From: Selaginella moellendorffii | Taxonomy: Eukaryota > Plantae > Lycopodiophyta | Direction: 5' to 3' | Assembly: GCF_000143415.4 (NCBI RefSeq) | Contig: NW_003314383.1 | Coordinates: forward strand, 1-64,000 | DNA: 64,000 nucleotides | In this document: positions 8,041 through 54,229 of the stretch, piece by piece | How the letters are laid out: every line of letters starts with the position of its first letter | How positions within the stretch are numbered: the first letter of the stretch is position 1 | Position numbers and translations under genes: made by a program | The notes under the pieces: model-generated | Database searches by the model: none | What the model saw: only the letters and a program-made list of their open reading frames with translations | What the model was told of the DNA's origin: nothing

Positions 8041-8208
8041 ATATCAGGCCTCAAATATATTAGGCCCTCAGATATATCAGGCCTTAGGTCTGTTTAGCTC
8101 TAGATAAATTTGACACTTCAACCCCTTGAGTTATTAGTGGAATGAGATGGTTATGGTATTGTTCTACTTCAATAGTTGGGTTTTGGGACTTTGACACTTC
8201 AATGTATC

Positions 8209-9348: not shown

Positions 9349-9360
9349 GTATCACATCAA

Positions 9361-11130: not shown

Positions 11131-11169
11131 ATCTCTTAAATCATTCTTTTTTGGTTGCTTACACATAGT

Positions 11170-15062: not shown

Positions 15063-15269
15063 ACTTTCTTGGAATGGAACATTGCCCCTCTTTTTCCAGA
15101 AGAGGAGTTCGTTACATTGGACATAAACCATAGTGTTTCGGAGGACCAGTACGTTGGTGTTTCTTTTCCACTAAGGCGATTGTAATTCTCAAACCACGGA
15201 CAGGATTTATAATATCTGGGCATTCCAGGTATTGCCGCATTGTCCTTCTTAAGGTTTCCCTAGGTGGAA

Positions 15270-18200
15270 ATGGAGTTGGACGAAATTATTGCTAGAAGTT
15301 CTATTTGCGAGAGCAGCAGTAGTTTCTTTGGGGGTTGGGCCGAAGGTACAGTCTTCACATTCAACTGCGCAAAGAAAACGATCAACTCATATAGCAACAA
15401 AGTTGAGCGATCCATAGGAATAGGAGGAGCCCAAAACCAAGATGTGGATATATGTAGGATGGAACAGGAAAAGGGGGTGTTTGGAAAACTGAAGCAATGG
15501 ATTGATAAGGACAATGGAAGATGGAAGGAGGACAAAATCAGGTTTATTAAACAGGTCAATGCTCATTCCAAAACAGAAGGAAAGCATGCCAACGCAAAAG
15601 CAATTTTAACGTATCACGGAGACGATGGTTATTACAGATTAAATACTCGTTATACTGATCATAATGGACAAGCTGAGGAGCACCACAACAACATTTTGGT
15701 CAAGATAGTGCCAGAACAGCAAAACATCAAAGGCAGAGAGACAGATAGAGTGACTGATCATTGCTACGGAAAATCAGACTTTGCTCCTGCTACGCGGTTT
15801 CCAGAGATTGATCCGCCAAGGTCGTTCATTTCAATCAAGAAATTGGTTAGCACCAACAAAAATGAAGTCCCAGAGAAAAGGACTAAGACCCCCAGGGAAA
15901 CTCCGAGAATTCCTGAGTATGCTTATCAATGTGCGCGATTTAAGGGGAATTGCGAGCGTCGCAAAAGTCTTAGCCCTGCTAAGAAAGCATATGAGCTTAG
16001 GAACGGGTTTAAAGAAAGAGTAAGTGCCAAGTTGATGGATCAGAAGTCTGATGACATGGCGAAAGAACCTATTCAAGGAAAACTCCTTAAAGTTTATGGA
16101 GGATGTGTGTGCATGGTGAACCAGAGCTCCATGCAAGAGACAATGATTATTTCAGAAAAGAAAACGTTGAAAGTACTTCAGAACATGACGGATGTCCGCA
16201 ATAATGAAGTACCCTCAGAGACTTCTAAACTTCAGATGTCAGTGAAAAAGTGGAATGATGATGGAGTCTATTCATCTCCTATGCGATCTCTCAGAGGTAC
16301 TTCTGAGGACCTCGTTGTTAGAAAGGCCGATAAAGCTGACAGAAACTGTGTATGTGTTCCAACACAGAGTCTTGTATGTGATGCGTGTGTAAGCATTTTA
16401 AGAAAGGCAAACCAGGAAGCTAATGCAAAACGGAGATTCAAACACCGTGGTAACTTTGGTCACAACATGACATACCGTTCCCTATTTGGAAAGAGAGCAA
16501 TATATGATCCTGGTGTGGGGAAGGAGTCACAGGCTATTTTTGTCACAACAGTGAAAAAAAGAAAGCAAGATAAGTCTATGGGCAGCGTCAACAATCCCAC
16601 AGAAACCTTTGAAAGCACCTTTAGCAGCATTGTTGCTGCAGATGATACTTCTCGGCTATCAAAACAGCAGCAGTCATTTGACGAAAGTCAAAGCAATGAG
16701 CATGATATTGTAAACCTGAAAAGTATTGTAAAGCGCTGCAAAATTCCTTCTGAGACCCCATTCCCAAGAAGTGAATCCACTGAACTTTTGATTTCACTTC
16801 AGAAGCAACAAGAAGAAGCTGAAAGGTGTAGCATTCAGATTTTAGAAGAGAGGATGCTTAAGGCTTTTGAGAAAGAAATTGATAAGATGCACAAGAACTC
16901 TCCAATGTTAACGAGAAAAGAAGCCTACCAACAAACTGTGTCCCAAGCTGAACTAGAAAATACCAAGAATGAAGAGTCCACTGGAGCTGCGCTTCGAAAT
17001 GAGCTTGAATTTAAGCTCCAATTTCCAGAACTGGTAAACTTGGACTCTGGGCTGTCAAGGATACATGTCAAACCCGAGGAAATGTTTCCGGAGCTTATCA
17101 GTGTGCCCAGTAATAAGATACGTCCGAAGGACGCAGCCGCAACATTCAAGTCCTCTCAATTTTCAATTCGAGATATTGTGTTGAATAACCAGAAACATCC
17201 TCAAATTCTTTTTCATGTGGAGAATGATCAAGAGCAAAGGGTACCACTCCTGGACCATGCAGATTCTTCAGGTAGTTTGAATTACAGATATTGTCCTCAT
17301 CCACCAAAACGTTCTCAAGGGTCATTCATGCATCCAAAAGACCTGCCTTGTGGAGAGCGTGGTCAATTTTATTATTACCTTCCAAGATGCTATTCAGCTC
17401 CTGAGCAACCTCACCAACAAAGTATTGATACTGCATATCCTTGTCACCATGCATATGCCGAAGACGTCTTTCTGGAACGGTTTTCACATGCACGGAATGA
17501 GCCTTTCAACTATCATAGACACCTCCATTCGTCTCACTGTGGAGATACCAAACGAAATCAATACGTTGCCAAGGCACCACCAAGTTTTCAACATCTGAAT
17601 ACTCAGCATGTAAAAACAAGAAGATTCTCTCATCTCCCTGATTCTTTATGTTATAGTGTGACTTATCCTTTGACTCAGCATGATTCATTTCCACGTTTTC
17701 AACCTGCTTGGTCCTGGAAAAGTGCTTGCACAAACTCTCATCATTGCCTCATTTCAGATAAGCAACTGGCAGTGAAGCATTCTGCAGTTAGAAAAACACC
17801 AATAAATCCTTGCTTGACGCATTTGCTAACTGCAGAGGAAGCCGAAATTATTTTACGTATCAGGCACACGGTTGACCAGGTAAGTTCATAAATGCTTACA
17901 GCTGTCAGCCTACTTGTCTGCATGCAGACCAAACAAGAAAGCACAGGGAACAATAAACAACCAGCGCATTGTAACCCATCGGCAGACTTTCGAGGCTCTT
18001 GCACGAAAACATATCATAAAAGTGTACTCAGGGCTACTGAATGTGATAAAACTAATCGAGAGAAAGGGAAACCTGTTATGACAGTGAATTCTCAGCTGCA
18101 GGTGAAGATTTTTCCTGTATTTAATCTGCAAATTTGGCATTCATACATGCAGAAACCGTATATGAGAGCCATGAACCTTGAGGCTGCTGCATAAAAAATT

Positions 18201-20060: not shown

Positions 20061-20086
20061 AATTTAAACCTAAGTTAAATACACAG

Positions 20087-20232
20087 TGTAAGCTCATGAA
20101 TTTAGACTTTTCAGGAGGTCACTCAATCTAGTACTACTCAAACCCAAGGAGGTTTATCCCCAAATATCCCAAGATTCTTAACTGATTGGAAAACAGGGGT
20201 GTACAATTATTAATGAGCCCTTTCCTTGTATA
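20087..20232 (-). mobile_element. Truncated Cassandra-type LTR
   Basis: TGTAAGCTC start, colinear with the LTRs of 21012-21606 including the 5S-like core. Confidence 0.8.
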
Positions 20233-20257
20233 TCCACCAATTAAAAGTGTACTTGCT

Positions 20258-21011: not shown

Positions 21012-21606
21012 TGTAAGCTCCTGAGTTTCGACTTCCCGAAAATTCACCCAACCCAGTACTATTCAAACCCAAGGATGCTTGACACCCCAAATATCCTAAG
21101 ACCCTTAATTGATTGGAAAAGGGAGTACACTCTTGTTCATGGGCCCTTTCCCTTTATATTTGAACCCCTATATATCGTCTCTTGAGTCATTCCCTTTGGT
21201 TGTTTACAATTCACCATGCTTCCCTGCAAATTCACACTTCGTGAATGGAAGTTGAGAGCCACAGCTCTCCTGAGAGCCTCGCTCTCTTGACACCTTACCC
21301 CTCGGGTTGAGCCTAGCCGAAGCAAGTTGAACCTGCCAAATGTCAATCAACATGTGGTGTGATTCCCCTAGCCAACTAACAAAGTCGGACCCAAGACCTC
21401 TCTGATACCAAATGTAAATTTCTGAGCTTAGACTTTCCAGAAGGTCACCCAGCTTAGTACTATTTAAACTCAAGGATACTTAACCCCAAATATCCCAAGA
21501 CCCTTAACCAATTGGAAAGGGGGTGCATTCTTGTTCATGGGCTCTTTCTCTATATATTTGAACCCTTATGGATTGTCTCTTGAGCTGTTCCTTTTGGTTG
21601 CTTACA
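21012..21606 (-). mobile_element. Cassandra-type TRIM (older copy)
   Basis: LTRs 21012-21208 and 21413-21606 with 5S-like cores. Internal ~200 bp carries the reverse-complement PBS (CTCTGATACCA) and PPT. Colinear with 37121-37712. Confidence 0.9.
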
Positions 21607-24600
21607 CCTTGGCAATAGTTAAGTTCCTTTGCTACATTTCTGCCTATTTTACCAGCTCCTACTTAATTCTCCTTAAGCTATTCACTACATGAATAATAGA
21701 GTGTTAGCCATCTGTCCACGGATTCCCAAATTCTCTCCCAATCCCCCTCCTTGGGTTAGATTGTACTTAAGGTTTAATTACACTCCCTAAAGGCACAAGT
21801 AGCCAAGCACACTAAGCTTCTAGGTTCTTAACATCCCTTAGTACCACAAGACATGATCATAAGACACTCTAAATCATAAGTTTTAGGTGCATCTTTTGCT
21901 TCAAGACCCCAGAGGGAAACACTGTGGCAAAATGGCCTAGTAGAGGTACCCCTACTCCCCCACTTCTATCCCAAAGGGAAGGCCCAAGCCCCTAGGAAAG
22001 AGCAAGGACCAATGAGCCGTATGGTACTCAAATGAGGCACCAATCCACCTGAGCTAGGAGCACTGTAGTTGGTTTCCCCTTTGGGAGTGGGAGCTACACT
22101 TTCTTGGGTGGCCTCTTGTAAGTGATTAAATTTTCCATTCTACTTTAGTCACTTAACCACACCTTTGACCACTTAGAGGGGTCTCACTCACAACCTCCAT
22201 AAGTCCTATTCCAGACTTCAGGCGTGCTATCCCCGAGAATGGCATCCATGCCACTCAACCTTTGCATTTGGTCCAAGTGCTCTATGTATCCGATCTCATG
22301 ATCGACACGCAAAGGTACCATCAATATATTAGCCTATTATGCTAAGGCCATGCCCATTCACCTTTGTCACACTAGTGGTCCAAAACCAACTACATCACAA
22401 TCGTATCCCTCAAAGACTGAGCCCTTTGTCCATGAGTGATCATTCTAGATCCACTCCTTAACATCCTTAGGATGCCCGCAGACATGGGGAATAACTTTCC
22501 CCAATATCCCTTTTATGGTCCGCACCAAGTCCTTTTCTGTCCATAACTTTGTTCGCCAATACTGCCATTGGATCAAGGCCCACAGGCCCCACCACTAAGT
22601 CCCACTGTCTTCTGGGACTTTCTCACCATATGCTAGAGGACTGCTCCTCTTCCTTTTCACAATTTGGGACTTTAGGACAACATTTAGAAACACCATAACC
22701 CTACATGAGCCTCATGTGTACTCTCCCCACCTTTTGCCTTTGGGTGCTCTAGCCATGAGGCTAAAGTGAGGTTCCATTGAGCCACACTAGGCATCCAAGT
22801 AGGTAGTGCCACCCACACTTAGACTGGGAGCACTGACCATTCAATCTTCCAGGGGAACTAGAGCTGGCTTTAAACACTTCACCAAGCTACCCCACTTGTC
22901 GGTTCATATTCACTCTAGCCTTGGACTTCCCAATGGTTATATCATCATCCAACACTTAGGTATAGCCTTTCTGAGCCACATTGGCTTGTGAGACACAAAT
23001 CCCTAATCCCCAAAGTGGAGCCAAAAGAGTGCCACGTGGTAGTGGCTGAAGCAAAAGTGAAACAATCATAACATGTTTGGACTAAAAGCTCCAACTTGAA
23101 GAGTCGAGAGCGGGAGTGGAACTCCCGATGGAGTGCTCAAGGAATGAGCATGAAGTGAGCAATAAAAGAGTCTCTAGATAAGGGACACAAGAGGACCAAC
23201 ACATGACACGTGGTGGAGTCTGAGATGGGACCTGAGATGGACCTGAGATGGAGTTTGAGATGGAGTCCGAATGGAGTCAAAGATGGACACAAGATGGACC
23301 CAAGATGGAGTCCAAGATGGAGTCCGAGATGGACCTGAGATGGAGTCCGAGATGGACTGAGATGGAATCCGAGATGGAGTCGGAGATGGACCCGAGATGG
23401 AGTCTGACATGGACCGAGATGGAGTTTAAGATGGACCCGAGATGGAGTCCGAAATGGACTGAGATGGAGTTCGAGATGGAGTTTGAGAAGGACCTGAGAT
23501 GGAGTTTGAGGTCAAGACCAAGACCGAGACTAAGACAGAGACTGGGACTGAGATCAAGACCAAGGCCAAGGCCGAGCCCGAGTCCAACTCCGAGTCCAAG
23601 TCTGAGTCTGAGTCTGAGTCCGAGTCCGAGTTTGAGTTTGAGTCCGAGTCCGAGTCCGAGTTCGAGTCCAAGGGTGAAAGCCTAAAGCGTTCGTCTCCCA
23701 GACCCAGGGGGGTTTGGTGAGCTCCAAAAGTACAGTAGAGGGAGGACTCTAGTGGAGCCAGTTTGGCCAAGAAAGGCTAATTTGGCCCAAAAAGGCTGTA
23801 CCCAGGTGTTGGGTGATGGGATAACCACTGGGAAGTCCAAGGTTAGAGTGAATATGGACTGACAAGTGGGGTGGTTTGGTGAAGTGTTCAAGAATCGGCT
23901 CTAGTTCCCCTAGGAGATCGAATGGTCAATGCTCCCAGTCCAAGCATGGGTGGCACTACCTACTTGCATACCTAGCGTGGCTCAATTTGGTATCGAAGCT
24001 ATTCCTTAGTTTGACTTTTATTGGTGCTCAAGTATATCACCACTTGTATTGGCATTGAAAGGTCTGAGGAGTGGGCTTATCCTTGAGGAGTAGCAGGTCA
24101 GGAGGACATAGCTCTCGACTATAATTCATGTGTAAACTTGTAGGCAAGGTGGTAGATAGAAAAGGGACAATAAGGGAATGACTTTAGGATCTTGGGAATA
24201 GTATAAAGTTTTCCTTAAAGAGTTGAGGATGTGATCCAAATGAGTGTTTGATTCAGCAAACTGGCTAATGTAGTTGTGGTAAACAAGTATAGTTGGGATC
24301 ACGGGAAAGATAGAGACTCCAAAATAATAAAGGAGTCACAAAATTATCCTCATATAGTTGAGGTTAGTGCTCATGAATTTGAGACCAAAATTAATGACTG
24401 TGGGAAGTCAAATATGGAAAAGGACACAAGTCCTTGAAATGGTAGCCGGGCCTACCCTTAATAAATGCTAGAACAATTCAAGAGATTGGGGGTGTACTTA
24501 AAGGATGAGTTGGAATTCTCATCACATGGACAAATAATCCTAAGAGGCAAAAGTAACCCATATGGAACAAAGAATAATCAAGTGTCGGAATAACACTTGT

Positions 24601-27600
24601 AAGAATGGTCCTTATAGGTAGGACATGAATACAAGAAGTTGTATTCTAACAAGCTGGCACTTCAAAAATGAGACTTTTTAGGTCGTCGAATTAATGAAGT
24701 CCAAAAAGAATAATTCGAGTGGAGTCAAGGAATGGTCCTAGAGGACTAGTGGAAGCATTTGGATTGAGGTGTGTTATACCCCACGAAGGATGAGAAGGAT
24801 TATAAGATCCAAGTGTGAGAACAGTGGGTATCTCATTAATGGTAGAATGTGCTATACTAAAGTTATGAGAAAGGGGTTCCCAAAAGAAAGCAACTTTGAT
24901 ACAAAGTTGTGTGTAAATTACATAGTTCAGTGCTAACAGATAGTTGGCATGAGAAACAATTGTATTGGTCTTGGCAAAGACCTAGACACAAGTAAAAAGT
25001 GTCATAAAGGTAGGTTCGTGGAACTGATGGTGTGGAGACACCGAATGTGCCAAGGTGTGATGCCTTGAGGTTAAGTTGGTGAGTTCATGAGAACCCTTTC
25101 CCAAAGGAATCCTAATGAAAATGGGAATGGCATAGCTTAAGCTGGAAGGCATGCAGTTAGAGTGTGGTGACCCAAAATAATGATGGAGATAGGGAAGCAC
25201 TAGTAATAAGTTGTAGGACTTGACAACTATGAGGCAACTAAGCAAAAATGTGCAAAATAATTGATTAAACTGGTAGAAGGTAACTACCTAAGACTTTTTA
25301 TTGGGATAAAGAAGTTAAACATACCCTTATGGGGGATAAATTATTAATATTGCAATATAGTAGGTCAATATTATAAAGGGAATGTTCATTGCCAAAGAAG
25401 GCTATCATTGGGACATCTAAACACTCTAAAACACTAGGAAGTGGTGTTTGGTGTCGTGAGGGCATTAGATAAGGCCCAAGGGACTAAGTCCCTAGCGAAT
25501 GATGGATAGGAAGTGCAATCCAAACGTTCGAGGTTACAAAGATGGGAGAAGTCCGTCTACCCGAATTGGACAAAACCAAAAAGGGATTTTGGCAAGGTTA
25601 GTCATGGGCATATAAAAGCCCATAAGTAGCAATGTTAATCCCAATGTGTGGGAATATAAAGTGAGTATACCCGGATTAAAGAACCACTCTCTAGGCTATT
25701 AGGTAGGTTCATCTCTATGAATACTTGCTAAGGCATGTTGAAAGTGCAAAGCTATCCTTCTAGTCTGGAGGAGAATGACCGAAGAAAATGTATGAGGCCA
25801 AAAAGCAAGTAGTAAAGTGATAGAACTAAACTATAGGAATCAAAGGGTATAACCAAGGGTGGTTATGCAAGTTGGGAATGGAGAATCAAGTGGGGGCTCA
25901 AGCGGTTTATTATTAACAATCGTGATGCCATGGGGAGTCTAAATATGGAATTATCTATGTTAGACCATATGGTAATTAGAAAGCTTGTAAAAAGGAAAGG
26001 CCTTAATAAGCTAAGAAACAAAGTTCGTTGAAGGTTCCCAAAGGTTCCCAATTCTAGGTGGATAAGTACCTAGAAAGCCAAGTGTAAATGGTTTATAGAG
26101 TGTGTGAAATTAGAGTGGCACAAAAAAAGCGTGGTCTTGAAACTTGTCATGAGGCGAGGCTATCAAGGTTAGGGAAGTAGTTCCCAAGTGTTCAAAGAGA
26201 AGGCTTTGAATGAAAGTTAATGGTTAATGACTTTCACGCTTGTGCATGAACCATATTACAATGGTCGAATGACTTGCTAGGTGAGATTAGCAAGTCAGGG
26301 GAACAAATATCTTAGTTGAAGGTGCTAACTTCAAAAGGGGTGGCCCATAAGGCCAAGTATGGAGGAGTCCATACATGATCACAGACATATCAAGTGAAAG
26401 GACTTGGTAGTGCAGAGGAACTAGGTTCCTAAGCCGTGATCTGTAATACGCTTTAAGTATAAGTTGGTGCACCGGCATGGGGAGTCACGCTAAGCATCCT
26501 GTGTGATGCCATCCGTAAATGCATATACAGAGGTTGGGTTCAAGTCCCGACACTTTAGTGCTTGGGTTTGAGTCCCAACTCACTAGGGCGTAGTAATGGT
26601 TTGGAATATAAGGACACTCATTTTTCGGTGGTCATGGACTTTTAGTAAAGAGACTAGCTTGGGCACACTGCCAAGTGGGGGATGCCCCAGAGTCATGATG
26701 CACGGTTAGATTGTTTAGAGTGAAAGCCTGGCATATCTAACTTGAACACTTTGGTGCAAGTGGCACCTAGGATGTGGTGAATGAGATGGGGACACTCAAT
26801 CTTAGTTGCTATGGACCCTTGGCTAGAAAGGTTGGCTTGGGCATACTGCCAAGTGTGGGGGATGCCCCCAAGGTCATCGTTAACAACTTAAAGGTCTAGA
26901 AGACCTAGTACCTATTGGCTAACTTATTAAGGTGCCAAGATAAAATCACTAGGTGATCTTGTGGCTAAATAAAGATAAGGTCCTTATTTGGGTAAGGAAT
27001 AAGGTTCCTAGTTCAAAGTATTAATTTGAATTAATGATAATGGTGTGATTTGATCAAGGTGACCAAGTGTGAAGAACACTTAAGGGAAATGAGCTATGTC
27101 AATGCGATGGCCTAATGAGTTGGAGGGTCACAAAGTTGGGCCGTGGATGGAGCCCATACTAGAAAATGCTAAAAAGACCTACTAGGGGTGAGCACCCTCT
27201 GGACTTGGCAAAGTGAAGCTTTTGCCATGGAACCAAAAGAATACCTCAAGGATGGAGGTAGTGATCCTATATTGCTTGGTTCAACAATCAATGGATAAGA
27301 GCAAAAGACTAGTGGCTAAGAAGAGAGCTATGGGAATCATAGGACAGAACTCAAATGGCAAAGTTAAGCCAGGAACACTAATGTGTTCGATGCTAACAGA
27401 TTGTGGGAAGGCAATGTGTTTCCAATGATGGATTCCTAATTGCTCTGATTTGGTGAAGGTGGAAGCTCCAAGGGAGGGAGTGGCAAGGTAACCAAATGAT
27501 AAGGCTGTGAACAACCTTAGCACAACTTATGATAATTGGAACTTAGTGCCAAATGTGGCACGAAATAGGAGAGAGGGTGATGGTGCCTTTAAGTAAAGAT

Positions 27601-30254
27601 CTTCCTAGGATAGGGAAGTGGATTTTGCACAATACGTGCAATGCAAGGTGTCAGACACACCTAGGAAATTAACTTTGAGAAGTTAAAATTAAAAGTTCCA
27701 AAGTATGATGGTTATATTGATAAAAGTTGAGACTAATCAAGAATGAGTAGTGGGATTGAGATAAAGAAGGTATCTCTAATGGGTTGCTTCGATTTAGCGA
27801 AAATGGAAGTTCTAAGGGAGGGAGCAATAAAGTAGCCAAATGATAGGGCCGTGAACAACCCTAGCACAAACTATAATTATGGAATTAGAATTTAGTGTTA
27901 AAGGTGGCACAAAATAGAAAAGAGGACGATAGTGCCCTCAAGTAGAGAATTTCTTAGGATGGGAAAGTGGAGTTACACAAAATGTGCAATACAATGTGTT
28001 GGAGACACCTAGGAAATTGACTCTCAGAAGTCAAAATTAAAAGTTCTAAAGTGCAAAGGTTATATCAATGGGAATTGAGACTATTCAAGAATGAGTAGTG
28101 GGATTAAGATAGAGAAGGTGTCTCTAACAGGTTTAGCGAGAACTAAACCAATAAAAGGAGAGAACCACCACAAATGGTCGAATGAGTCTCTAAGTTGGAG
28201 AGATTATGCTCCTTAAAAAATGGACAAGGCATGATGAGCTTCTGGTGTCAAACCATTAACAAATATTGGCTAAATGCCAAGGATGGAAAGGGTAATACAT
28301 GCTAATATTACTTAATAAATTAGTTTATTGTTTGATGAGGACATCAAACTTTGTCTATGAGTGGTGGAGTTGTGAGACACAAATCCCTAAGCCCCAAAGT
28401 GGAGCCGAAAGGGTGCCACATGGTAGTGGCCGAAGCGAAAGCTAAACAAGTGTAACATGTTTGGACTAAAAGCTTCAACTTGAAAAGTCGAGAGCAGGAG
28501 TGAAACTCCTAACAAAGCGCTCCAGGAACAAGCATGAAGTGAGCAATAAGTGAGTCTTTAGAAAAAGAACACAAGAGGACCAACATATGACACGTGGAAG
28601 TGTCCAAGATGGACTTGAGATGGAGTCCAAGATGGACCCAAGATGGAGTCTAAGATGGAGTCCGAGATGGACCTGAGATGGAGTCCGAGATGGACCTGAG
28701 ATAGAGTCCGAGATGGAACCAAGACCAAGACCGAGACCGAGACTGAGACCGAGTGTGAGTCTGAGTCCGAATACGAATACAAGCTGTTGGGTGAAATCCC
28801 AAAGCGATCGTCCCCCTGGGGCAGGGGGGGGCTGCAGGGGGTTCCAAAAGTATAGTAGGGAGAGTGTGGGGGTTGGACCCTAGTGGAGCCAATTTGGCCA
28901 GAAATGGCCAGTTTGGCCCAAAAAGGCTATACCCAGTTGTTGGGTGATAAGATAACCACTTGGAAGTCCAAGGCTAGAGTGAATACGGACTAACAAGCAG
29001 GATAGCTTGATGAAGTGTTCAAGAGCAAGCTTTAGTTCCCCTAGGAGATCGAATGGTCGATGCTCCCAGTCCAAGCATGGGTGGCACTACCTACTTGGAT
29101 ACCTGGCGTGGCTTAATGGAACTTCACTCTAAGCCTATGGCTAGAGCACCCAAAGGAAGAAGGTGGGGAGAGTACCCAGGAGGCTCACATAGGGCCACGA
29201 TGTTTCGAAATGTCATCCCAAAGTCCCAGACTATGGAAAGAAAGAGGAGTGTGTAAGCGACTAATTTTTCCATTCTACTTTAGTCACTTAACCACACCTT
29301 CGACCACTTGGAGGAGTCTCACTCACAACCTCCTTAAGTCCAATTCAGGACTTGGACTTGCTAGCCCCAAGAATGGCATCCATGCCACTCAACACTTGCA
29401 CCTGGTCCAAGTGCTCCACGTGTCCGGTCCCAAGACCGACACCCAAAGGTACCACTGACATCTCGGCCCGTTACGCTAAGGCCATGCCCATTCACCTTTG
29501 CTGCACTAGTGGTCCAATACCACTTGCATCACCATCCCGTCTCTCCAAGACTGGGCCATCGGTCCACGAGTGGTCATCCTAGATCCACTCCTTAGCATCC
29601 TTAGGATGCCCACAGACCTGGGGAATCGCCTTCCCCAAAGTCCCTTTGTCAATTCCTACCAAGTCCCTTTTTGCCCCTGGCCGTGTTTGCCAACACTGCC
29701 ACTGGATCGAGGCCCATAGGCCCGACCACTAAGTCCCATGGTCCTCTGGGACTTCCTCACCACACGACTGTGTCCTTGGTCACTACCCCAGAGGACTGCT
29801 CCTCTTCCTTTCCACAGTCTAGGCCTTTGGGACAACATTTCGGAACACCGTGGCCTTACGCGAGCCACCTGGGTACTCTCCCCGCCTTTCGCCTTTAGGT
29901 GCTCTAGCCATGGGCTTAGAGCGAGGTTCCGTTGAGCCACACCTGGTATCCAAGTAGGTAGTGCCACCCACACTTGGACTGGGAGCATCGGCCAGTCGAT
30001 CTCCCGGGGGAACTAGAGCCGGCTCTTGAACACTTCACCAAGCTACCCCGCTTGTCGGTCCGTGTTCACTCTAGTCTTGGACTTCCCAGTGGGCAGCTCA
30101 TCACCCAACACTGGGTCCGGCCTTCCTGGGCCAAACTGGCCTTTCATGGCCAAACTGGCTCCACTGCAGTCCTCCCCCTACTATACTTTTGGGGCTCACC
30201 AAACCCCCCAGGGTCTGGGAGATGAACGCTTTGGGCTTTCACCCTCTCAGGCTC

Positions 30255-30890
30255 CGGACTCGGACTCGGACTCGGACTCGGACTCGGACTCGGACTCAGA
30301 CTCGGATTCGGACTCGGACTCGGGCTCAGGCTCGGTCTCGGCCTCGGCCTCGGTCTCGGTCTCGGTCCCGATCTCGGTCTCGGTCTCGGTCTCGGTCCCG
30401 GTCTCGGTCCCGGTCTCGGTCTCGACTTCGGACTCCATCTCGGACTCCATCTCGGACTCCATCTCGGGTCCATCTCGGACTCCATCTCGGACTCCATTTC
30501 GGGTCCATCTCGGGTCCACCTCGGACTCCATCTCGGACTCCATCTCGGACTCCATCTCGGACTCCACTTTGGACTCCAACTCGGGTCCATCTTGGGTCCA
30601 CCTCGGACTCCACTTCGGACTCCAACTCGGGTCCATCTCGGACTCCACTTCGGACTCCAACTCGAGTCCATCTCGGACTCCACTTCGGACTCCAACTCGA
30701 GTCCATCTCGGACTCCACTTCGGACTCCAACTCGAGTCCATCTCGGACTCCACTTCGGACTCCAACTCGAGTCCATCTCGGACTCCACTTCGGACTCCAA
30801 CTCGAGTCCATCTCGGACTCCACTTCGGACTCCAACTCGAGTCCATCTCGGACTCCACTTCGGACTCCAACTCGAGTCCATTTCGGACAC
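30255..30890. repeat. Hierarchical tandem array in the 3' LTR of B: GACTCG/GTCTCG hexamers, 12-mers and 35-mers
   Basis: Direct reading. The 35-mer GACTCCACTTCGGACTCCAACTCGAGTCCATCTCG recurs at 35-bp spacing (30641, 30676 ... 30851). Confidence 0.95.
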
Positions 30891-32334
30891 TCCCACGTGT
30901 CATGTGTTGGTCCTTTTGGGTCCCTTTTTGGAGCCTTGCCTTTTGCTCGCTTCGTGCTCGTTCCTTGAGCACTTCGTTGGGAGTTCCACTCCCGCTCTTG
31001 ACTTTTCAAGTCAGAGCTTTTGGTCCAAACGTGTTACGCTCGTTTAGCTCTCGCTTCGGCCACTACCATGTGGCGCCCTTCCGGCTCCACTTTGGGGCCT
31101 AGGGATTTTGTGTCTCACAACTCCACCACCCATAGATGAAGTTCGATGTCCTCATCGAACGGTAAACCATTTTGTAAAGTAACACTCGTATGTGTTACCA
31201 TTTCCATCCTTGGCACCTAGCCAATATTTGTCAATGGTTTGACATTGAAGGCTCACCATGCCTTTTGCATATGCCTCAATGGTTTGACACCAAAGGCTCA
31301 CCATGCCTTGCCTATCCTCTAAGGAGGGTAGTCTCCCCAACTTAGAGACTGATTGGACCACAAGGAGTGGTTCTCTCCTTTTATTGGTTTAGTTCTCGCT
31401 AAACCTCTTAGAGACCCTTCTCTAAGTCAATCCCACTACTCCTTCTCGAGTAGTCTCAATTTCCATCGATATTACCTTTGCACTTTGGAACTTTGAATTT
31501 TGACTTCTTGGAGTCAATTTCCTAGGTGTCTCCGACACCTTGCCTTGCACCTTTTGTGCAACTCCACTTCCCATCCTAGGAAGTTCTCTACTCGAGGGCA
31601 CCATCATCCTCTCTTCTATTTCGTGCCAAAGTTCCAGTTATCATACTTTGTGCTAGGGCTGTTCATGGCCCTATCATTTGGCTACCTTACCGCTCCCTCC
31701 CTTGGAGCTTCCACTTTCGCCAAATCGGAGCATTTCGGAATCCCTCCTAGGAAACACACTTCCTTTCCCACAACTTGTTAGCGTCCAACACATTAGTGTT
31801 CTTCGCCTAACTTTGTCACTTGGATTCCTTCCAAGGGATTCCACGGCCCTATCTTGGCCACTCATCTTTTGCTCCTATCCGTTGATTGTTGCACCAAGCA
31901 ACATCAAATCTCTACCTCCCTCCTTGAGGTATTGTTTCGGTTCCATAGCAAAGACTCTTCTTTGCCAAGTCCAGAGGATGTTCACCCCTAGTACGTCTCT
32001 TTAGCATCTTCTGCTATGGGCTCTATCCATGGCCCAACTTCGTGACCCTCCCATGGGTCTTTTATAGAGACTACTTTCCTCGGACTCACTATGCCATCGC
32101 ACGGACATAGTTTATTTCCCTTAGGTGCTCTTCCCACTTGGTTATCACGACCAAGCCACACCACCTTAAACAGTTCAATTTTAACATTTTCAACCAGAAA
32201 CTTCATTCCTTAGCCAACCAAGGACCTTGTCCTTATCTGGCCATAAGATCACCTAGTGATCTCACCTTGGCACCTTAATAGAGTTGCCAAGAGGTACTTG
32301 GTTTTCTAGACCTCCAAGTTGTTGACTATAACCC

Positions 32335-32790
32335 CGGAGGCATCCCCCACACTTGGCGGTGCACCCAAGCTAGCCCTTACGGCCAAGGGTTCATAGCAAC
32401 TGAGATTAGGTGTCCCCATCTCACTCACCACGACCTTGGTGCCACTTGCACCAAAGTGTTCAAGTTAGATATGCTGAGCTTTCACACTAAGCAATCTAAC
32501 CGTGCATCACGACTCCGAGGCATCCCTCGCTTGGCGGTGTGCCCAAACCAGTCTCCCCACTGAGAGTCCATGACCACCGAAATATGAGTGTCCTCATATT
32601 CCAAACCATCACCACGCCCTAGTGATTTGGGACTCGAACCCAAGCACTAGAGGGTCGGGACTCGAACCCAACCTCCGTATATGCATCTACGGACGGCATC
32701 ACACTAGATGCCTGGCGTGACTCCCCACACCGGTGCACCAACCTATTTTTAAAGCGCGCTACAAATCACAGCTTAGGAACCTAGTTCCTC
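32335..32790 (-). other. Putative structured RNA domain with two tRNA T-arm/B-box motifs inside element B
   Basis: The minus strand carries adjacent hairpins, including GGTTGGG-TTCGAGT-CCCGACC and TTGGG-TTCGAGT-CCCAA, plus a duplicated ~110 nt multi-hairpin unit. A homologue lies at ~26420-26870 in A. Confidence 0.55.
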
Positions 32791-35700
32791 CACACTGCCA
32801 AGTCCTCTCACTTGACATGTCTGTGATCATGCATGGACTCCTCCATGCTCGGCCCCATGGCCCACCCTTTTTGAAGTTATCACCTTCAACTAGGGTCTTT
32901 GTTCCCCCGACGTGCCAATCTCACTTGGCAAGTCCTCCGACCATTGTAACATGGTTCCTGCATAAGCGTGAAAGTCCTTGACCATCGACTTTCGTTCAAA
33001 GCCCTCTCTTTGAACACTCGGGAACTACTTCCCTAACCTTGATAACTTTGCCTCATGGCAAGCTTCAAGACCACGCTTCTGCTGCGCCACTCTGATTTCG
33101 CGCGTTCCATGAACCATTTACACTTGGCCTTTCTAGGTACTACGCTACCTAGAATCGTCTTTGGGAACCTTGAAGGAACTCTGTCCCTCAGCTTGTTAAG
33201 GCCTCCCCTTTCGCAAGCTTTATAGTTGCCATATAGTCTAACATGGACAATTCCATATTTTAGACTCTCCATGGCATCACAGTTGCTAGCAACAACATCC
33301 TCGAGCACCCTCTTGATTCTCCACTCCCAACTTTCATAACCACTGTTGGATATGCCCTTTGATTTCTATGGTTCAATTCCATCCCAATACTACTTGCTTT
33401 TGGCTTCACACCTTTCCTTTGGTCATTCTCCTCCAGACCAGGAGGATAGCTTTGCACTTTCTATCATGCTTTAGCAAGTATTCTTAGGGATGGACCTACC
33501 CAATAGCCTAGGGAGTGGTTCCTCAATCCGGGTATGCTCACCTTATAATCCCACACACTGGGATTACATTGTTGCTTATGGGCCGTTACATGCCCATCAC
33601 TAGCCTTGCCAAAATTCCATTTTTGGCTTTGTCCAATTCGGGTAGACAGTCCTCTCCTGCCTCCGCAACCTTGGACATTTGGATAGCACCTTCTATCCAT
33701 CGTTCGCTAGGGACTTAGTCCCTTGGGCTTTATCCATTGCCCTCGCAACATCAAACACCACCTTCTGGTGTTCTAGAGTGTCCGGATGTCCCAATGATGG
33801 CTTTCTTGACAATGAGTATTTCTTTTTATGACATTGACTTACTATATCGCAACACAAGCAACTTATCCCCCGTAAGGGTATATCCAACTTCCTTATGCTA
33901 TTAAGAAGTCTTGGGTAGCTACCTTCTACCCGTTTAACCAGTTATTTTGCACCTCTTGCTTAGTTGCCTCGTAGTTGTCAAGTCCTACAACTCATTGCTT
34001 GGTGCTTTCACACCTCCATCATTATCTGGGTCACCACACTCCAACTGCATGCTCTGCAGCTTAGGCTATGCTATTCCCATTTCCATTGGGATTCCTTTGG
34101 CAAGGGGTTCTCATGAACCCACCAACATAGCCTCAAGGTATCACACCTTGGCACATTTGGTGTCTCCACACCATCGGCTCCACGAGCCTACCTCTATGAC
34201 ATTTCCCCTTCGTGTCTAAGTCTTTGCCAAGACCAACACCGCTCTTTCTCATGCCAACCATCCGTTAGCACTGCACCATAGAGGTCACACACAACTTTAT
34301 GTCAGAGTTGTTTTCTTCTGGGAACACCTTTCCCATAACTTTAGCATGGCATATTTTGCCATTGATGAGATACCCTCTGTTCTCATCCTTGGATCCTATG
34401 ATCCCCCCCCCATCCTTTGTGGGGTACAACACACATCAGTCCAAATGCTTCTATCAGTCCTTTTAGGACCATCCGCTGACTCTACTTGAGTCATCCAGCA
34501 ATTTTGGACTTGGTTAATCCACAGACCCGTAAGGTCCTACTTGTGAGGCACTAGCTCACTGGAATACACTTCTTGCATTCCTGTCCTACTCAAAAGGACT
34601 ATTTTCACAAGTGTTACTCCGACACTTGATTTTGTTCTCTGGGGGCAACCTTTGCCCCTTAGGACTACTTGTCCATGTGATGAGAATACCAACTCATCCA
34701 CTCAATACACCCCCAACTCCTTGGGTTGTTCCAGCATTTATTAGAGGTAGCCCCGGCTACCATTTCAAGGATTTGAGTCCTCTTCCGTATTTGACCTTCC
34801 ACGGTCATTACCTTTGGTCTCACATTCATGAGCACCAACCTCAACTATATGAGGATAATCTTGTGACTCCTTTATTGTTTTGGAGTCTCTATCTTTCCCG
34901 TGATCCCAACTTTAGTTGTTTACCACAACAACCTTAGCCAATTTGCTGAGACAAATGCTCATCCGGATCACATCCTCAACTCAATGAGGAAAACCTTGCA
35001 CTGTTCCCAAGATCCCAAAGTCGTTCCATTATTGGCCCTTTTCTATCCACCACTCGTCTACAAGTTCACACATGAACTGTAATGGAGAGCCATGTCTTCC
35101 CGACTTGCTACTCCTCAAGGATAGACCCACTCCTTGGACCTTCCGATGCCAACACTAGTGGTGATATACTTGAGCACCAATAAAAGTCGGACTAAGGAAC
35201 AGCTCTGATACCAAATTGTAAGTGACTAATTTTTCCATTCTACTTTAGTCACTTAACCACACCTTCGACCACTTGGAGGAGTCTCACTCACAACCTCCTT
35301 AAGTCCAATTCAGGACTTGGACTTGCTTGGCGAGGGAACTTAGCACAAGCCAAGACGGAGTTGGTCGGATAGGCGAGGTAAGCTGGCAAATTGGAAAGGA
35401 AAAATTTGTGGCTAACACAAAGGTACCACTGACATCTCGGCCCATTACGCTAAGGCCATGCCCATTCACCTTTGCTGCACTAGTGGTCCAATACCACTTG
35501 CATCACCATCCCGTCTCTCCAAAACTGGGCCATCGGTCCACGAGTGGTCATCCTAGATCCACTCCTTAGCATCCTTAGGATGCCCACAGACCTGGGGAAT
35601 CGCCTTCCCCAAAGTCCCTTTGTCAATTCCTACCAAGTCCCTTTTTGCCCCTGGCCGTGTTTGCCAACACTGCCACTGGATCGAGGCCCATAGGCCCGAC

Positions 35701-36229
35701 CACTAAGTCCCATGGTCCTCTGGGACTTCCTCACCACACGACTGTGTCCTTGGTCACTACCCCAGAGGACTGCTCCTCTTCCTTTCCACAGTCTAGGCCT
35801 TTGGGACAACATTTCGGAACACCGTGGCCTTACGCGAGCCACCTGGGTACTCTCCCCGCCTTTCGCCTTTAGGTGCTCTAGCCATGGGCTTAGAGCGAGG
35901 TTCCGTTGAGCCACACCTGGTATCCAAGTAGGTAGTGCCACCCACACTTGGACTGGGAGCATCGGCCAGTCGATCTCCCGGGGGAACTAGAGCCGGCTCT
36001 TGAACACTTCACCAAGCTACCCCGCTTGTCGGTCCGTGTTCACTCTAGTCTTGGACTTCCCAGTGGGCAGCTCATCACCCAACACTGGGTCCGGCCTTCC
36101 TGGGCCAAACTGGCCTTTCCTGGCCAAACTGGCTCCACTGCAGTCCTCCCCCTACTATACTTTTGGGGCTCACCAAACCCCCCAGGGTCTGGGAGACGAA
36201 CGCTTTGGGCTTTCACCCTCTCAGGCTCC

Positions 36230-36740
36230 GGACTCGGACTCGGACTCGGACTCGGACTCGGACTCAGACTCGGATTCGGACTCGGACTCGGGCTCAGGCT
36301 CGGTCTCGGCCTCGGCCTCGGTCTCGGTCTCGGTCCCGATCTCGGTCTTGGTCCCGGTCTCGGTCCCGGTCTCGGTCTCGACTTCGGACTCCATCTCGGA
36401 CTCCATCTCGGACTCCATCTCGGGTCCATCTCGGACTCCATCTCGGACTCCATTTCGGGTCCATCTCGGGTCCACCTCGGACTCCATCTCGGACTCCATC
36501 TCGGACTCCATCTCGGACTCCACTTCGGACTCCAACTCGGGTCCATCTCGGGTCCACCTCGGACTCCACTTCGGATTCCAACTCGGGTCCATCTCGGACT
36601 CCACTTCGGACTCCAACTCGAGTCCATCTCGGACTCCACTTCGGACTCCAACTCGAGTCCATCTCGGACTCCACTTCGGACTCCAACTCGAGTCCATCTC
36701 GGACTCCACTTCGGACTCCAACTCGAGTCCATTTCGGACA
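36230..36740. repeat. Same tandem array in the 5' LTR of B, shorter
   Basis: Same units, roughly three fewer 35-mers. Confidence 0.95.
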
Positions 36741-37120
36741 CTCCCACGTGTCATGTGTTGGTCCTTTTGGGTCCCTTTTTGGAGCCTTGCCTTTTGCTCG
36801 CTTCGTGCTCGTTCCTCGAGCACTTCGTTGGGAGTTCCACTCCCGCTCTTGACTTTTCAAGTCGGAGCTTTTGGTCCAAACGTGTTACGCTCGTTTGGCT
36901 CTCGCTTCGGCCACTATCATGTGGCGCCCTTCCGGCTCCACTTTGGGGCCTAGGGATTTTGTGTCTCACAGAGTGTAGTGACCAAGGATATGGTCATGTG
37001 GTGATGAAGTCCTAGAGGACAATGGGACTTAGTGGTCAAGCCTATAGGTGTTGTCCCAGTGGCAGTGTTGGCGAACATGGCCATGGATAGAAAAGGGACT
37101 TGGTGGGGACTGTAAAAAGG

Positions 37121-37712
37121 TGTAAGCAACCAAAGGGAACGACTTGAGAGACGGTCCATGGGGTTCAAATATAGAGGGAAAGGGCCCATGAATAAGAGTG
37201 CACCCCCTTTTCCAATCGGTTAAGGGTCTTGGGATAGTTGGAGTTAAGCGTCCTTGGGTTTGAATAGTACTGGGCTGGGTGACCTCCCGGGAAGTCCAAA
37301 CTTAGGAGCTTACATTTGGTATCAGAGGGGTCTCGGGTCCGACTCTGTTGGTTGGCTAGGGGAATCGCACCATATGTTAATTGACATCTGGCTGGTCCAG
37401 TTTGCTCCGCTGGGCTCGACCCGAGGGGTAGGGTGTCAAGAGAGCGGGGCTCTTGGGAGAGTTGCGGCTCTCAGCTTCTGTTCACGAGGGCATGAACTTG
37501 CAGGGAAGCGTGGTGGATTGTAAGCAACCAAAGGGAACGACTTGAGAGACGGTCCATGGGGTTCAAATATAGAGGGAAAGGGCCCATGAATAAGAGTGCA
37601 CCCCCTTTTCCAATCGGTTAAGGGTCTTGGGATAGTTGGAGTTAAGCGTCCTTAGGTTTGAATAGTACTGGGCTGGGTGACCTCCCGGGAAGTCCAAACT
37701 TAGGAGCTTACA
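37121..37712 (+). mobile_element. Cassandra-type TRIM, intact and very young
   Basis: 194-bp LTRs 37121-37314 and 37519-37712 with one visible mismatch; PBS TGGTATCAGAG; PPT AGGGAAGCGTGGTGGA; perfect TSD AAAGG. Each LTR carries a 5S rRNA-like segment. Confidence 0.95.
37241..37297 (+). promoter_or_regulatory. 5S rRNA-derived Pol III internal control region in the Cassandra LTR (second copy ~37639-37695)
   Basis: GAGTTAAGCGtccTTGGGtttGAaTAGTACTgGGcTGGGTGACCTCCcGGGAAGTCC matches the A-box to C-box part of plant 5S rRNA as I recall it. Confidence 0.9.
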
Positions 37713-39214
37713 AAAGGATATTGGGGATGGTTGTTCCCCATATCTGTGGGCATCTTAAGGATGTTAAGGAGTGGATCTAGGATGGTCACTCCTAGATGGA
37801 TGGCCTAGTCTTTGAGAGACAGGACTGTGATGCAAGTGTTGTTAGACCACCAATGTGACCAAGGTGAATGAGTATGGCATTAGCGTAACGGGCTGGTATA
37901 TCGGTGGTACCTTGGGGATTGGACATGTGGAGCACTTGGACCAAGTGCAAAGGTTGAGTGGCATGGATGCTATTCTTGGGGATAGCAAACCCGAAGTCTA
38001 AAATAGGATTTATAGAGGTTGTGAATGAGACTCCTCCAAGTGGTTGGAGTGGTTAAATGACTAAAGTAGAATGGAAAAATTGGTCTCTTACAGCGCCCCC
38101 CCCCCCTCCCCTCTGGGGGACGATCACTTTGGGCTTTCACCTAATAGCATGTATTAGTATTCGTACTCGAACTCGCACTTGGACTTGGTCTCGGTCTCGG
38201 TTTTGGACTCAGACTCGGTCTCAGTCTTAGTCTCAATTCCATCTCGGACTCCATCTCGAGTCCATCTCGGGTCCATCTCAGACACCATCTCAGATCCATC
38301 TCGAACTCCATCTTGGGTCCATCTCGGGCTCCATCTCGGGTCTATCTCGGACTCCACTTTTGGGGCCTAGGGATTTTGTGTCTCACACAAGGTAGTGGTG
38401 ATCAAATAGACAAGGTAAGCTAGCAAATTGGAAAAGAAAAATTTATGGCTTACATTGTGTTGCCAAACTGCTGTAAGTAAAAATTTTAGTTGAGAAAAAC
38501 CTCATATGAAATATGCTTAGTGGCTTTTCCATGAGCACTTTTCATGTTTGTTGTGTCACTAACCTTAGTTTGGAAACAAATAAAAGAGAGAAAAACTACT
38601 AAGCATATAAGAACTTCATAAACTGGAAGGATCAAACAGATTGTAATAAGGTCCTTTCTTCTAAGCTTTGTATATCTTAGATTGTTTTAACTTTCAAATA
38701 TCTTGTCATATTTAGTTTTCTTTCTTCTTGACAACCCGAATCAATCATTATCAATAACATTTTTAGAGCTTTCTCGCAGTCACAGCTCTGAGTGTAAACA
38801 TGTATGATAGTGTTCCATTACATGATGAATTGTGATTATTATTTCTTGGCTCCAGCTTCTCCCTCCAACCAGTGGTTGGTGGCACTGGAAAATCATTTTT
38901 ATTTAATACAATTATAATGCATCTGAAAAATACAGGGGAAAAAACTGTGGCAGTGACATGGACTGAAAGTAAGTACACTTTTAATTGGTGGACATACAAC
39001 TTTTAAATTACCAGTTCCTATTACTGAAACAAGTACATTTGACATATGTGGAAATGAAACTGAGAGGAATAAGATCTTTCTGATAACTTTTTGCACGTAA
39101 TCTAATGGTTCACACTCACCATATAACTATAGTTTTAAGCTTGTGATTATTCATGAATGTAATAAAAATTATCACCAAATAAATAATCTATTATTCTTTC
39201 AGTATACTAACTAC

Positions 39215-52660: not shown

Positions 52661-52774
52661 GTTTAAAATATTAGTATATTCACCATTTATTGCAAACCAA
52701 GTATAGTACATATAGCATACACATATAATATAGTACATACTTTTTACCCATAGTAATATAATAAAACCTTATAG

Positions 52775-53321
52775 TATGGGGGTTGCAAATGTATAGTAGG
52801 GATAGTGGGTAGGGCATGGCTAACCAACTTAAGGCATAGTCTGCCTCTTGCTTGTGTGCCTGTCCTTGTTCTACGTCCGGCTTGGGTCTAAGCCCAAGTT
52901 TCATACCATGTTAGTTGGTGGAGTACCCATATCCTCGCATTAAGCCACTAGTATGTTGAAATAGCACCAAACTCCATTTAGCTCTGTTTTACATGCTGGT
53001 TCTAGCATTGGGATGCTGGATACTCTAGAATTATTCCAAGTCACTCCGTGCTCCTATCCCTTTGCTCCTTGAGCTGTATGCTTAAGAGTCATTCTGTGCT
53101 TTAGTGTTGTCGCTCCTTGGCTCCACACTTAGGAGTTTGGTTTTGTTCATTCGTTTAGTGCCCTAAGGCCCTAAAATTTAAGTTCCACTCTGCTGTCCTT
53201 TTGACATGTGGCATATATCATGTTGTATATAATACGTGGCACATTAAAGGTTTAGTTTCTGCTTTATGGTTATCCTATAGTAAATCACCATAAGATAAAG
53301 GGTGAAAACCACATGTGTTAC
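52775..53321 (+). mobile_element. Partial family F LTR
   Basis: Reverse-complement similarity to 8209-8745, ending ...ACCACATGTGTTACA. Confidence 0.8.
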
Positions 53322-54229
53322 AATACCACTCTCTTTCCGACCAAATTTAAAACTAATCCAATACAAAGCTACTCTAAGATTATTAGCAAAGTTCCCTAGA
53401 AAAGAATTAAACATTGTAACCCACATCTTCTGATAGCAAGCCTAAACAAAATGGTTTAACACTTGACCATTATCCATCCCATCACTCACCACTTGTAAGA
53501 ATATTATAACTAACATGCATTGATATAAGGACTCTTGATATATAATGTGAACGTGAGTAATGAGATCACACCTTGTTACAAATCATGTATTGGTAAAGAG
53601 AAGATAATTTACATATTTGATCCTTCATCAATTTAAGAAAAGTTTATAAGGAAATAACTATTTAAATAAATAGACTAATCCCTACAATATTTATTAATCC
53701 AACAAAAATCATGTCTAGAAAGTGTCATGCTAAACAACTATAAATCAGCATGCTCACCATTTATAGCAAACCAAAGGGAGGTTTACTTTTTACCCATAGT
53801 AATATAGTAAAACCTTATAGTAACCACCAATAGACTAATATTAATCCTACCAACTCAAAGTGTAACCTAATGTGTGTAACTCATAAGCCCAAGCATAAAC
53901 TCATGTAAATTATAAATCTTAAATCCATCCTATGAGCCCAAGTGAAAGCATATATAATATGGTATAAAATGGCGACTAAAATCTATACCCAAATAACATA
54001 TATGAAGCCATAGCAACTAAACTTATACCCACTCAAATCATCGTTTTTATCTTTACATATGCAATAAGACTAATTGCCTAATCTCATTGGATGGTACTCA
54101 ATCCTCTAATACCAAATAAAGTGCATGTAGTTTTCACCCTATACCCTATGGTGATTTACCATAAGATAATCATAGAGCATAATAAAACCCTTGCCAAGAG
54201 CAATAAAGCAACTTGCTTACCCAGACCAT

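What the first reader, a model, noticed from the sequence alone, without database searches (positions are those of the whole stretch)
32335..32790. Dense RNA-structure cassette with tandem tRNA T-arms in a young non-coding LTR element
Seen, on the sense (minus) strand of B, abutting hairpins: GGTGTG-gggagt-CACGCC; GGCATC-tagtgt-GATGCC; TCCGTA-gATGCATa-TACGGA (palindromic loop); GGTTGGG-TTCGAGT-CCCGACC (32653-32673); and CTCTAGTGcTTGGG-TTCGAGT-CCCAAatCACTAGGG (32617-32652). The same order survives in A (~26420-26600). Established: GGTTCGAGTCC is the Pol III B-box/tRNA T-arm; palindromic loops initiate retroviral RNA dimerisation; paired T-loops contact tRNA elbows in RNase P and T-box leaders. 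Inference: a parasitic retroelement with a tRNA-derived module for Pol III transcription, tRNA mimicry or packaging, parallel to the 5S capture in Cassandra. I know of no LARD described with tandem T-arms, but I cannot search.
Basis: partly seen in the sequence, partly recalled or inferred. Interest (0 to 1): 0.8.

Follow-up and report, generated by a model that had tools for sequence, protein, structure and literature searches.

The report
Twin tRNA-arm signal in gene-less retrotransposon
A young, highly repeated plant jumping element with no genes carries two side-by-side hairpins predicted to fold like tRNA arms, inside a stretch whose predicted folding is kept between copies, which likely serves as an RNA tag that gets its transcript exported and packaged by a helper element's machinery.

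Summary
Observation confirmed. All five hairpins lie where stated, in the interior of a 7.7-kb non-coding LTR retrotransposon (LARD type: tRNA-Met primer site, 5-bp target duplication, LTRs 0.8% apart outside one patch). An older copy has decayed versions. One T-arm arises in 0.4% of null sequences; the two arms share 15 nt and count as one event. Common variants in related DNA contigs avoid the stems or keep pairs, and a duplicated unit beside the arms shows compensatory changes, so the fold looks selected in RNA. Limits: the whole 4-kb interior is structured; only the T-arms resemble tRNA; the palindromic loop is at chance level; conservation of the T-loops themselves is not significant. The Cassandra/Helenus parallel fails: the motif is 2.5 kb inside, not in the LTRs, so Pol III could not make a copyable RNA from it. 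Best reading (0.55): a cis-acting export/packaging module on the Pol II genomic RNA. The scan noted what appears to be this module before on other DNA of this genome, reporting it also in a coding chromovirus; I could not test that here. New variant of a known kind; function unshown.

The parts
35217..36970 (-). 5' LTR of element B (TG...CA), with hairpin-rich tandem arrays
   Evidence: 12 mismatches to the 3' LTR in about 1,550 ungapped columns outside one 200-column block that holds a replaced patch (53 mismatches)
35202..35213 (-). Primer-binding site TGGTATCAGAGC, 3 nt behind the LTR (tRNA-Met type; assignment recalled, same type as given for SM-Galahad in PMC3350952)
31120..35216 (-). Non-coding interior, structured throughout
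   Evidence: 48-83 stops per frame, longest open stretch 134 aa; no Pfam hit below E 0.24 in six frames read through with X; no codon periodicity in A/B differences; z-scores
32768..32798 (-). Upstream hairpin H0
   Evidence: 3 of 4 listed paired variants keep the pair, the fourth faces another variable site
32730..32740 (-). Loose A-box-like word TGGTGCACCGG behind an A-rich linker; not significant
   Evidence: 6 such loose matches on the sense interior, 0 strict
32714..32731 (-). Hairpin H1; its 3' strand can alternatively pair with 32618-32613 and close a five-way junction
   Evidence: the two folds differ by 0.4 kcal/mol as evaluated, but the ensemble of 32606-32745 favours H1
32695..32712 (-). 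Hairpin H2, variable loop
32674..32693 (-). Hairpin H3 with self-complementary loop
32653..32673 (-). T-arm-like hairpin 1 (also a perfect B-box word), preceded by GAGGT as in some tRNA variable loops
   Evidence: 14 of 113 tRNAs held have that word there
32617..32652 (-). T-arm-like hairpin 2 on an 8-bp lower helix (minihelix-like, 13 bp)
   Evidence: its 3' side resembles the 3' end of tRNA-Arg(TCT) genes L030, L033, L038, L059
32490..32612 (-). Multibranch unit u1
32310..32434 (-). Paralogous unit u2, 63% identical to u1, pairing kept
31120..31131 (-). Purine-rich tract before the 3' LTR
29252..31119 (-). 3' LTR of B; target duplication CACTC at 29247-29251 and 36971-36975; B sits inside the 3' LTR of copy A
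26460..26599 (+). Same cassette in older copy A (interior 23986-28369, 82% identical to B)

Best explanation
The cassette is a predicted-to-fold, likely selected RNA module on the full-length transcript of a gene-less LTR retrotransposon, which likely marks that RNA for nuclear export and for packaging by a helper element's Gag, with the two T-arm hairpins likely acting as tRNA-elbow-like handles for a host or helper protein. Shown: anatomy of the element, lack of coding capacity, the hairpins, high repetition, and patterns of variation that fit selection on pairing. Inferred: transcription by Pol II from the 5' LTR; dependence on a helper (follows from LTR retrotransposon biology); origin of the arm from a tRNA 3' fragment followed by tandem duplication; the export/packaging role; the helper being a Galadriel-type chromovirus (shared LTR motif with poly-G LTRs in the window, and unchecked AI notes).
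For: Intact LTR/PBS/PPT/TSD and no ORF. Family is very abundant: 9,892, 12,291 and 4,128 contigs of three runs of one sample lie on 401 nt (no copy number). Of the 40 variant rows shown (30 more not shown), 8 sites fall in the 115-nt core: 5 of 39 unpaired and 3 of 76 paired positions, and all 3 keep a pair (U.G to C-G at 32729, U.G to U-A at 32656, G-C to G.U at 32714). Listed variant sites: 8 in 146 nt of the core against 30 in the 195 nt upstream, Fisher p 0.005. Paralogous units u1/u2: 27 of 28 pairs canonical in u2 against a null mean of 19.9 (share 0.0002), 5 double changes against 2.1 (share 0.02), with GACA and GATG loops kept. A versus B over the whole interior: 64 pair-breaking single changes against 99.7 +- 8.0 in context-matched shuffles. 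Stem pairs outside the B-box word are kept, which a DNA-only motif would not need. One contig of run X16 (RNA is a guess) spans the cassette at depth 50. Eight LTR copies in the window, of B's family and of poly-G LTRs, share one motif; poly-G LTRs over 1 kb with a Met primer site are described for SM1-Galahad (PMC3350952, passages). Export elements in LTR retrotransposons exist in mouse, and export is unstudied in plants (PMC12786077, passages).
Against: No test here touches function. Paired-versus-unpaired variant contrast in the core is not significant (p 0.12), nor are the T-loops against other loops (0 of 14 against 5 of 25, p 0.14). A versus B in the cassette alone is not significant (8 breaks against 11.9 +- 2.7, p 0.11), shows 0 double changes at pairs of p>0.8, the whole interior has no excess of double changes (14 against 14.5), and the deficit of breaks also appears on the antisense strand and is partly circular. 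A/B identity at the cassette (85-88%) is within the range of the rest (73-90%). The u1/u2 registers were chosen to maximise pairing, and that evidence concerns the neighbouring units, not the arms. Raw RNA reads: 8, 11 and 3 of 9.2 million records laid on 4.4 kb, none in the bins 32617-32910. The covariance model finds no further copy in the window, so sharing with a coding element is untested. Known packaging signals usually lie near the primer site (recalled); this lies 2.5 kb behind it.
Confidence: 0.55

Rival explanations
1. The T-arms are a passive relic of a captured tRNA 3' fragment, duplicated once and kept only as two more stable hairpins in an interior that is selected for general compactness; their T-loop identity does nothing.
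For: The whole interior is structured; cassette-specific tests are not significant; both T-loops are mutated in copy A; nothing 5' of the arm resembles tRNA; the LTR arrays use similar CGAGTCC words.
Against: Core is poorer in common variants than the equally structured stretch upstream (p 0.005); no listed variant in either CG-containing T-loop while the H2 loop carries three alleles; A's changes are of the post-insertion decay type.
Confidence: 0.22
2. The motif works as DNA: two B-boxes bind TFIIIC, either driving a short Pol III RNA or acting as a barrier against silencing.
For: Two exact GGTTCGAGTCC words; loose A box 62 nt upstream behind an A-rich linker; no T4 run on B's sense strand from 33613 to the element's end (share 0.056 in a null for the 1,621 nt behind the A box); Pol III promoters are known in Cassandra and proposed for Helenus (PMC10886601).
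Against: A start here would give an RNA without the 5' LTR part and primer site, which could not be copied as this element; no strict A box and 6 loose ones by chance; no terminator behind the arms in B (copy A has T-runs at 26621 and 26640, but one search lists no common variant there); pairing is kept outside the B-box word.
Confidence: 0.13
3. The arms are substrates of tRNA-handling machinery: modified (m1A58, pseudouridine 55), cut as a minihelix by RNase P/Z, or read as a tRNA-like signal for long-distance movement of the RNA.
For: Both loops are 7-nt GUUCRA hairpins, the form that human TRMT6/61A methylates in mRNA (10.1101/202747, passages); H5 is 13 bp long like an acceptor-T minihelix and is followed by a tRNA-Arg-like end; anticodon and T-loops were most important for graft transport of reporter mRNA (review PMC10226581, passages).
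Against: Cutting would destroy the genomic RNA and m1A would hinder its reverse transcription; no CCA and an internal loop in H5; no read pile-up of starts or ends (but cover is almost nil); Rfam Tymo tRNA-like match only E 8.1.
Confidence: 0.1

Closest known systems
LARDs (large retrotransposon derivatives; e.g. Sukkula, name recalled)
   Same: Over 4 kb, two LTRs, primer site, non-coding core, conserved RNA secondary structure (PMC7215508 passages; bioRxiv 10.64898/2026.03.01.708851 passages)
   Different: No tRNA T-arms are mentioned in those passages; the founding paper (PMC1470764) was not held, so I saw nothing of it
Helenus / TRIMp3 (Kojima 2024, PMC10886601; parts 1-4 of 6 read, supplement searched)
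   Same: Non-autonomous LTR element with tRNA-like sequence, B box kept, 5-bp TSD; one family, Helenus-1_SMo, in Selaginella moellendorffii
   Different: Helenus is 311-1263 bp with a single A+B box unit inside each LTR; here 7.7 kb, internal, two T-arms, no strict A box; by eye only a generic variable-loop/T-arm likeness to the Helenus-1_SMo LTR printed
Cassandra TRIM
   Same: Small-RNA-like sequence in a parasite of LTR machinery; a Cassandra-like element with the same primer site lies at 37121-37712
   Different: 5S, in the LTRs, used as promoter of the genomic RNA; not possible from an internal site
MusD MTE and IAP RTE export elements (PMC12786077, passages)
   Same: Structured internal cis-element on full-length retrotransposon RNA
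   Different: Mouse elements working through NXF1; no sequence or structure likeness tested; no T-arms mentioned
SM1/SM2-Galahad, Galadriel chromoviruses (PMC3350952, passages incl. most of section 2.1)
   Same: About 1-kb or longer LTRs with poly-G tracts, Met primer site, 5-bp TSD; candidate helper
   Different: Coding; paper passages describe no RNA module; link to B untested here
Plant and viral tRNA-like structures (TLS)
   Same: T-arm mimic in a non-tRNA RNA
   Different: No 3' CCA or pseudoknot, internal position, Rfam RF00233 only 12.4 bits against gathering 40

Membership tests
LARD | Two LTRs, primer site, purine tract, TSD | tested here: met
LARD | Longer than 4 kb and non-coding | tested here: met
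   7,719 bp
LARD | Conserved, structured core across many copies | tested here: met
   (two full copies plus contig variants only)
LARD | Mobilised in trans by an autonomous partner | not testable with these tools
   no genome held; no partner module in the window
Helenus / TRIMp3 | tRNA-like sequence inside the LTRs | tested here: not met
   B-box words only at 32630-32668 and 26537-26575 in these elements' interiors; model R1 has no LTR hit of note
Helenus / TRIMp3 | Short element (about 1.3 kb at most) | tested here: not met
   7.7 kb
Helenus / TRIMp3 | Conserved A box (TRGCY..YGG) with B box | tested here: not met
   0 strict, 1 loose A box upstream; 6 loose matches on the strand
tRNA gene or tRNA-SINE head | Cloverleaf with D and anticodon arms recognised by tRNA models | tested here: not met
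   ARAGORN 0; Rfam no tRNA hit to E 10; H1-H3 score 35 against shuffles 35.7 +- 2.8 over 113 prokaryotic/phage tRNA 5' parts; no plant tRNA set was at hand
tRNA gene or tRNA-SINE head | Insertion marks (TSD, tail), present in only some copies | tested here: inconclusive
   present in both window copies and covered throughout in DNA contigs; a 7-nt direct repeat flanks H1-H5 but also pairs in both folds; no tail seen
Retroviral-type dimer initiation site | Self-complementary hexamer in a hairpin loop | tested here: met
   H3 loop, kept in A, but at chance frequency
Retroviral-type dimer initiation site | Dimerises RNA; lies in the 5' leader | not testable with these tools
   position is 2.5 kb behind the primer site; assay needed
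Retroelement export element (MTE/RTE-like) | Needed and sufficient for export of full-length RNA | not testable with these tools
   reporter assay needed

The most novel reading that the evidence does not exclude
A plant LTR retrotransposon lineage uses tandem tRNA T-arm mimicry as a passport on its genomic RNA: host tRNA-elbow readers or modifiers license export, packaging and possibly vascular movement towards spore-forming tissue, and gene-less parasites keep the passport. It would be a defined, 115-nt cis signal for a step not yet studied directly in plants.
Probability: 0.2. Interest if true: 0.8.

Novelty: new variant of a known kind. Interest (0 to 1): 0.5.

Why it matters
How gene-less plant LTR elements are recognised by their helpers, and how full-length retrotransposon RNA leaves the plant nucleus, are open questions (PMC10886601 says the dependence is not understood; PMC12786077 says export has not been studied directly). 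A short module with two T-arms, a palindromic loop and covarying neighbours gives discrete mutable targets. If only generic folding matters, it is an ordinary LARD.

Tried and rejected
No whole genome held, so no genome-wide alignment. Homologue hunts: tandem T-arm pattern in viral contigs gave 27 loci, none with BLAST likeness to the window; family pattern in metagenome contigs 0; LTR-start pattern 2 loci, both unrelated. No RNA holder is on record in the run listing (no evidence either way). 'Short variant with a second primer site': the X16 contig joins the LTR end to 32917, where TGGCACG begins; I first read this as placing the cassette in a 5' leader, then dropped it, because the joint is at the exact LTR end (as a nested insertion into another copy would give), has no GT-AG ends, about half of DNA depth differs at 32912, and no such loose end is among the 19 shown of 528 in DNA contigs. 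tRNA-Arg donor: 1 of 1 viral hit and 3 of 30 prokaryote hits were called tRNA-Arg(TCT), others were other tRNAs or none; the pattern was built from the window and no plant tRNA set was available, so this stays a lead. Relaxed ARAGORN gave only wrap-around artefacts. Decayed gag or antisense ORF: no Pfam hit, no periodicity. Pfam annotation of the rest of the window was not obtained, so no coding partner was mapped. Literature: 9 searches; none listed an LTR element with internal tandem T-arms; most subscription papers and Repbase are not covered.

Full report
Setting. The finding lies in element B, 36970 to 29252 on the minus strand: 5' LTR 36970-35217, primer site TGGTATCAGAGC three bases behind it, a 4,097-nt interior, a purine-rich tract, 3' LTR 31119-29252, and a CACTC target duplication. 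The LTRs differ at 12 of about 1,550 columns outside one replaced patch, so B is young. It sits, inverted, in the 3' LTR of an older relative, A, whose interior is 82% identical. The interior has 48-83 stops per frame, no Pfam hit and no codon periodicity. This is a LARD by structure. No genome is held. Earlier AI notes call the host a spikemoss; I did not test that, but poly-G LTRs in the window fit the description of SM1-Galahad in Selaginella (PMC3350952, passages).

Observation. All five hairpins are present at the stated places and predicted with probability 0.95-1.0. The 456-nt stretch folds at z -6.4. A canonical T-arm (G-C closed 5-bp stem, TTCRANY loop) appears on 0.4% of 3,000 Markov strands of this make-up and never in 47.5 kb of the window away from A and B. 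The two arms share 15 nt, so they are one acquisition and one tandem duplication. Controls temper the word 'cassette': the whole interior is structured on both strands, and a palindromic loop is expected about twice among 48 loops and seen once.

Is the fold selected? Three lines. First, DNA contigs of three runs of one sample and one air metagenome were laid on 32560-32960; thousands of contigs fit, so the family is abundant. Of 70 variant rows 40 were shown. Eight sites fall in the 115-nt core: five in loops or linkers, three in stems, all three keeping a pair. The paired/unpaired contrast is not significant (p 0.12), nor the T-loops alone (p 0.14), but the core has fewer listed variants than the stretch upstream (8 in 146 against 30 in 195 nt, p 0.005). 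Linkage between variants cannot be seen. Second, the two diverged units 3' of the arms (63% identical) keep 27 of 28 pairs against 19.9 expected, with 5 double changes against 2.1 and fixed GACA and GATG loops; registers were chosen per copy, which flatters the count. Third, A against B: fewer pair-breaking changes than context-matched shuffles over the whole interior (64 against 99.7), but not significantly so in the cassette, no excess of double changes, and the same signal on the antisense strand. Together: selection on RNA folding is likely; selection on T-loop identity is suggested, not shown.

How tRNA-like? Only at the arm. ARAGORN finds nothing, Rfam's best is the tymovirus tRNA-like element at E 8.1, and H1-H3 score no better than shuffles against 113 tRNA 5' parts (prokaryotic and phage set). 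Two local hints point to a tRNA 3' fragment as source: GAGGT before arm 1 (14 of 113 tRNAs have it there) and likeness of arm 2 plus its tail to tRNA-Arg(TCT) 3' ends. An alternative fold closes H2-H5 into a five-way junction of nearly equal evaluated energy; the local ensemble prefers the hairpin row.

Pol III? The arms contain exact B-box words, with a loose A box 62 nt upstream, but loose boxes occur six times on this strand and strict ones never; B has no T4 behind the arms. More important, Cassandra and Helenus carry their promoter in the LTR so that the Pol III RNA can be reverse-transcribed (PMC10886601, parts 1-4 of 6 read). A start 2.5 kb behind the primer site cannot make this element's genomic RNA. 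Membership of TRIMp3 fails on position, size and A box.

Expression. About 12% of three raw RNA runs gave 8, 11 and 3 reads on 4.4 kb, none over 32617-32910; the family is nearly silent there. One run guessed to be RNA has a 2,580-nt contig at depth 50 that covers 31400-32917 and then joins an LTR end, best read as read-out from a nested LTR.

Mechanism. A gene-less element must be transcribed from its LTR, leave the nucleus untranslated, dimerise and be packaged by a helper's Gag (established biology). What it keeps under selection should be RNA signals for those steps. I put 0.55 on the module being such a signal, with the T-arms as handles; 0.22 on the arms being passive hairpins; 0.13 on a TFIIIC DNA role; 0.10 on processing, modification or vascular movement (10.1101/202747 and PMC10226581, passages). 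The step from 'selected fold' to 'export and packaging' is inference. Earlier notes from other pieces of this genome describe a 250-260-nt two-arm module shared by a coding chromovirus's 3' region and its parasite, a duplicated multibranch unit and a hairpin-packed 4.1-kb interior. These appear to be the same family (the sequence look-up returned nothing, so identity is by description). They moved me towards export and a Galadriel-type helper; my model found no third copy in this window, so the sharing is untested here.

Novelty. Structured LARD cores and tRNA-bearing TRIMs are known. Nine paper searches listed no LTR element with internal tandem T-arms; the founding LARD paper, Repbase, bioRxiv supplements and most subscription journals were not seen. 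Verdict: real, probably functional, a new variant of a known kind, interest 0.5.

Noticed in passing
window 37121-37712: Cassandra-like TRIM: 194-bp LTRs 99.5% identical, each with a partial 5S match (E 0.003, 0.006), Met primer site like B's, AAAGG target duplication, inserted in A's 3' LTR; older copies near 20080-20240, 21012-21606 and 10975-11164. If the host is a lycophyte this may be little reported.
   Followed up: partly
window 35320-35420: B's 5' LTR carries a replaced patch absent from its 3' LTR that resembles 38406-38454 and 10224-10315: gene conversion or assembly chimera.
   Followed up: partly
window 30230-30900 and 36200-36750: LTR arrays of 6-, 12- and 35-nt units that themselves fold into hairpins (z about -4.5 on the sense strand).
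   Followed up: no
window 50272-64000: A second, T-rich family with no long ORF and a poly-G LTR (58820-60000, also 8204-9349) sharing B's LTR motif; no T-arm module found.
   Followed up: partly
run X16 contig on window 32745: A 26-nt A-rich insertion just 5' of the hairpins on the sense strand: the linker tolerates length change.
   Followed up: no
L001, L004, L007, L009, L012, L013, L018, L021, L022, L024 near 3001-3050: In several phage tRNA clusters a tRNA is followed at once by a short T-arm minihelix without D and anticodon arms, some ending in CCA: degenerate or armless tRNA remnants.
   Followed up: no
window 15264-17891: 875-codon open frame without Pfam hit, followed by IQ-like motifs; probably a host exon.
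   Followed up: no
window 29252-33613, minus strand: 4.3 kb of B's sense strand has no run of four T; may reflect avoidance of splice, poly(A) or Pol III stop signals.
   Followed up: partly
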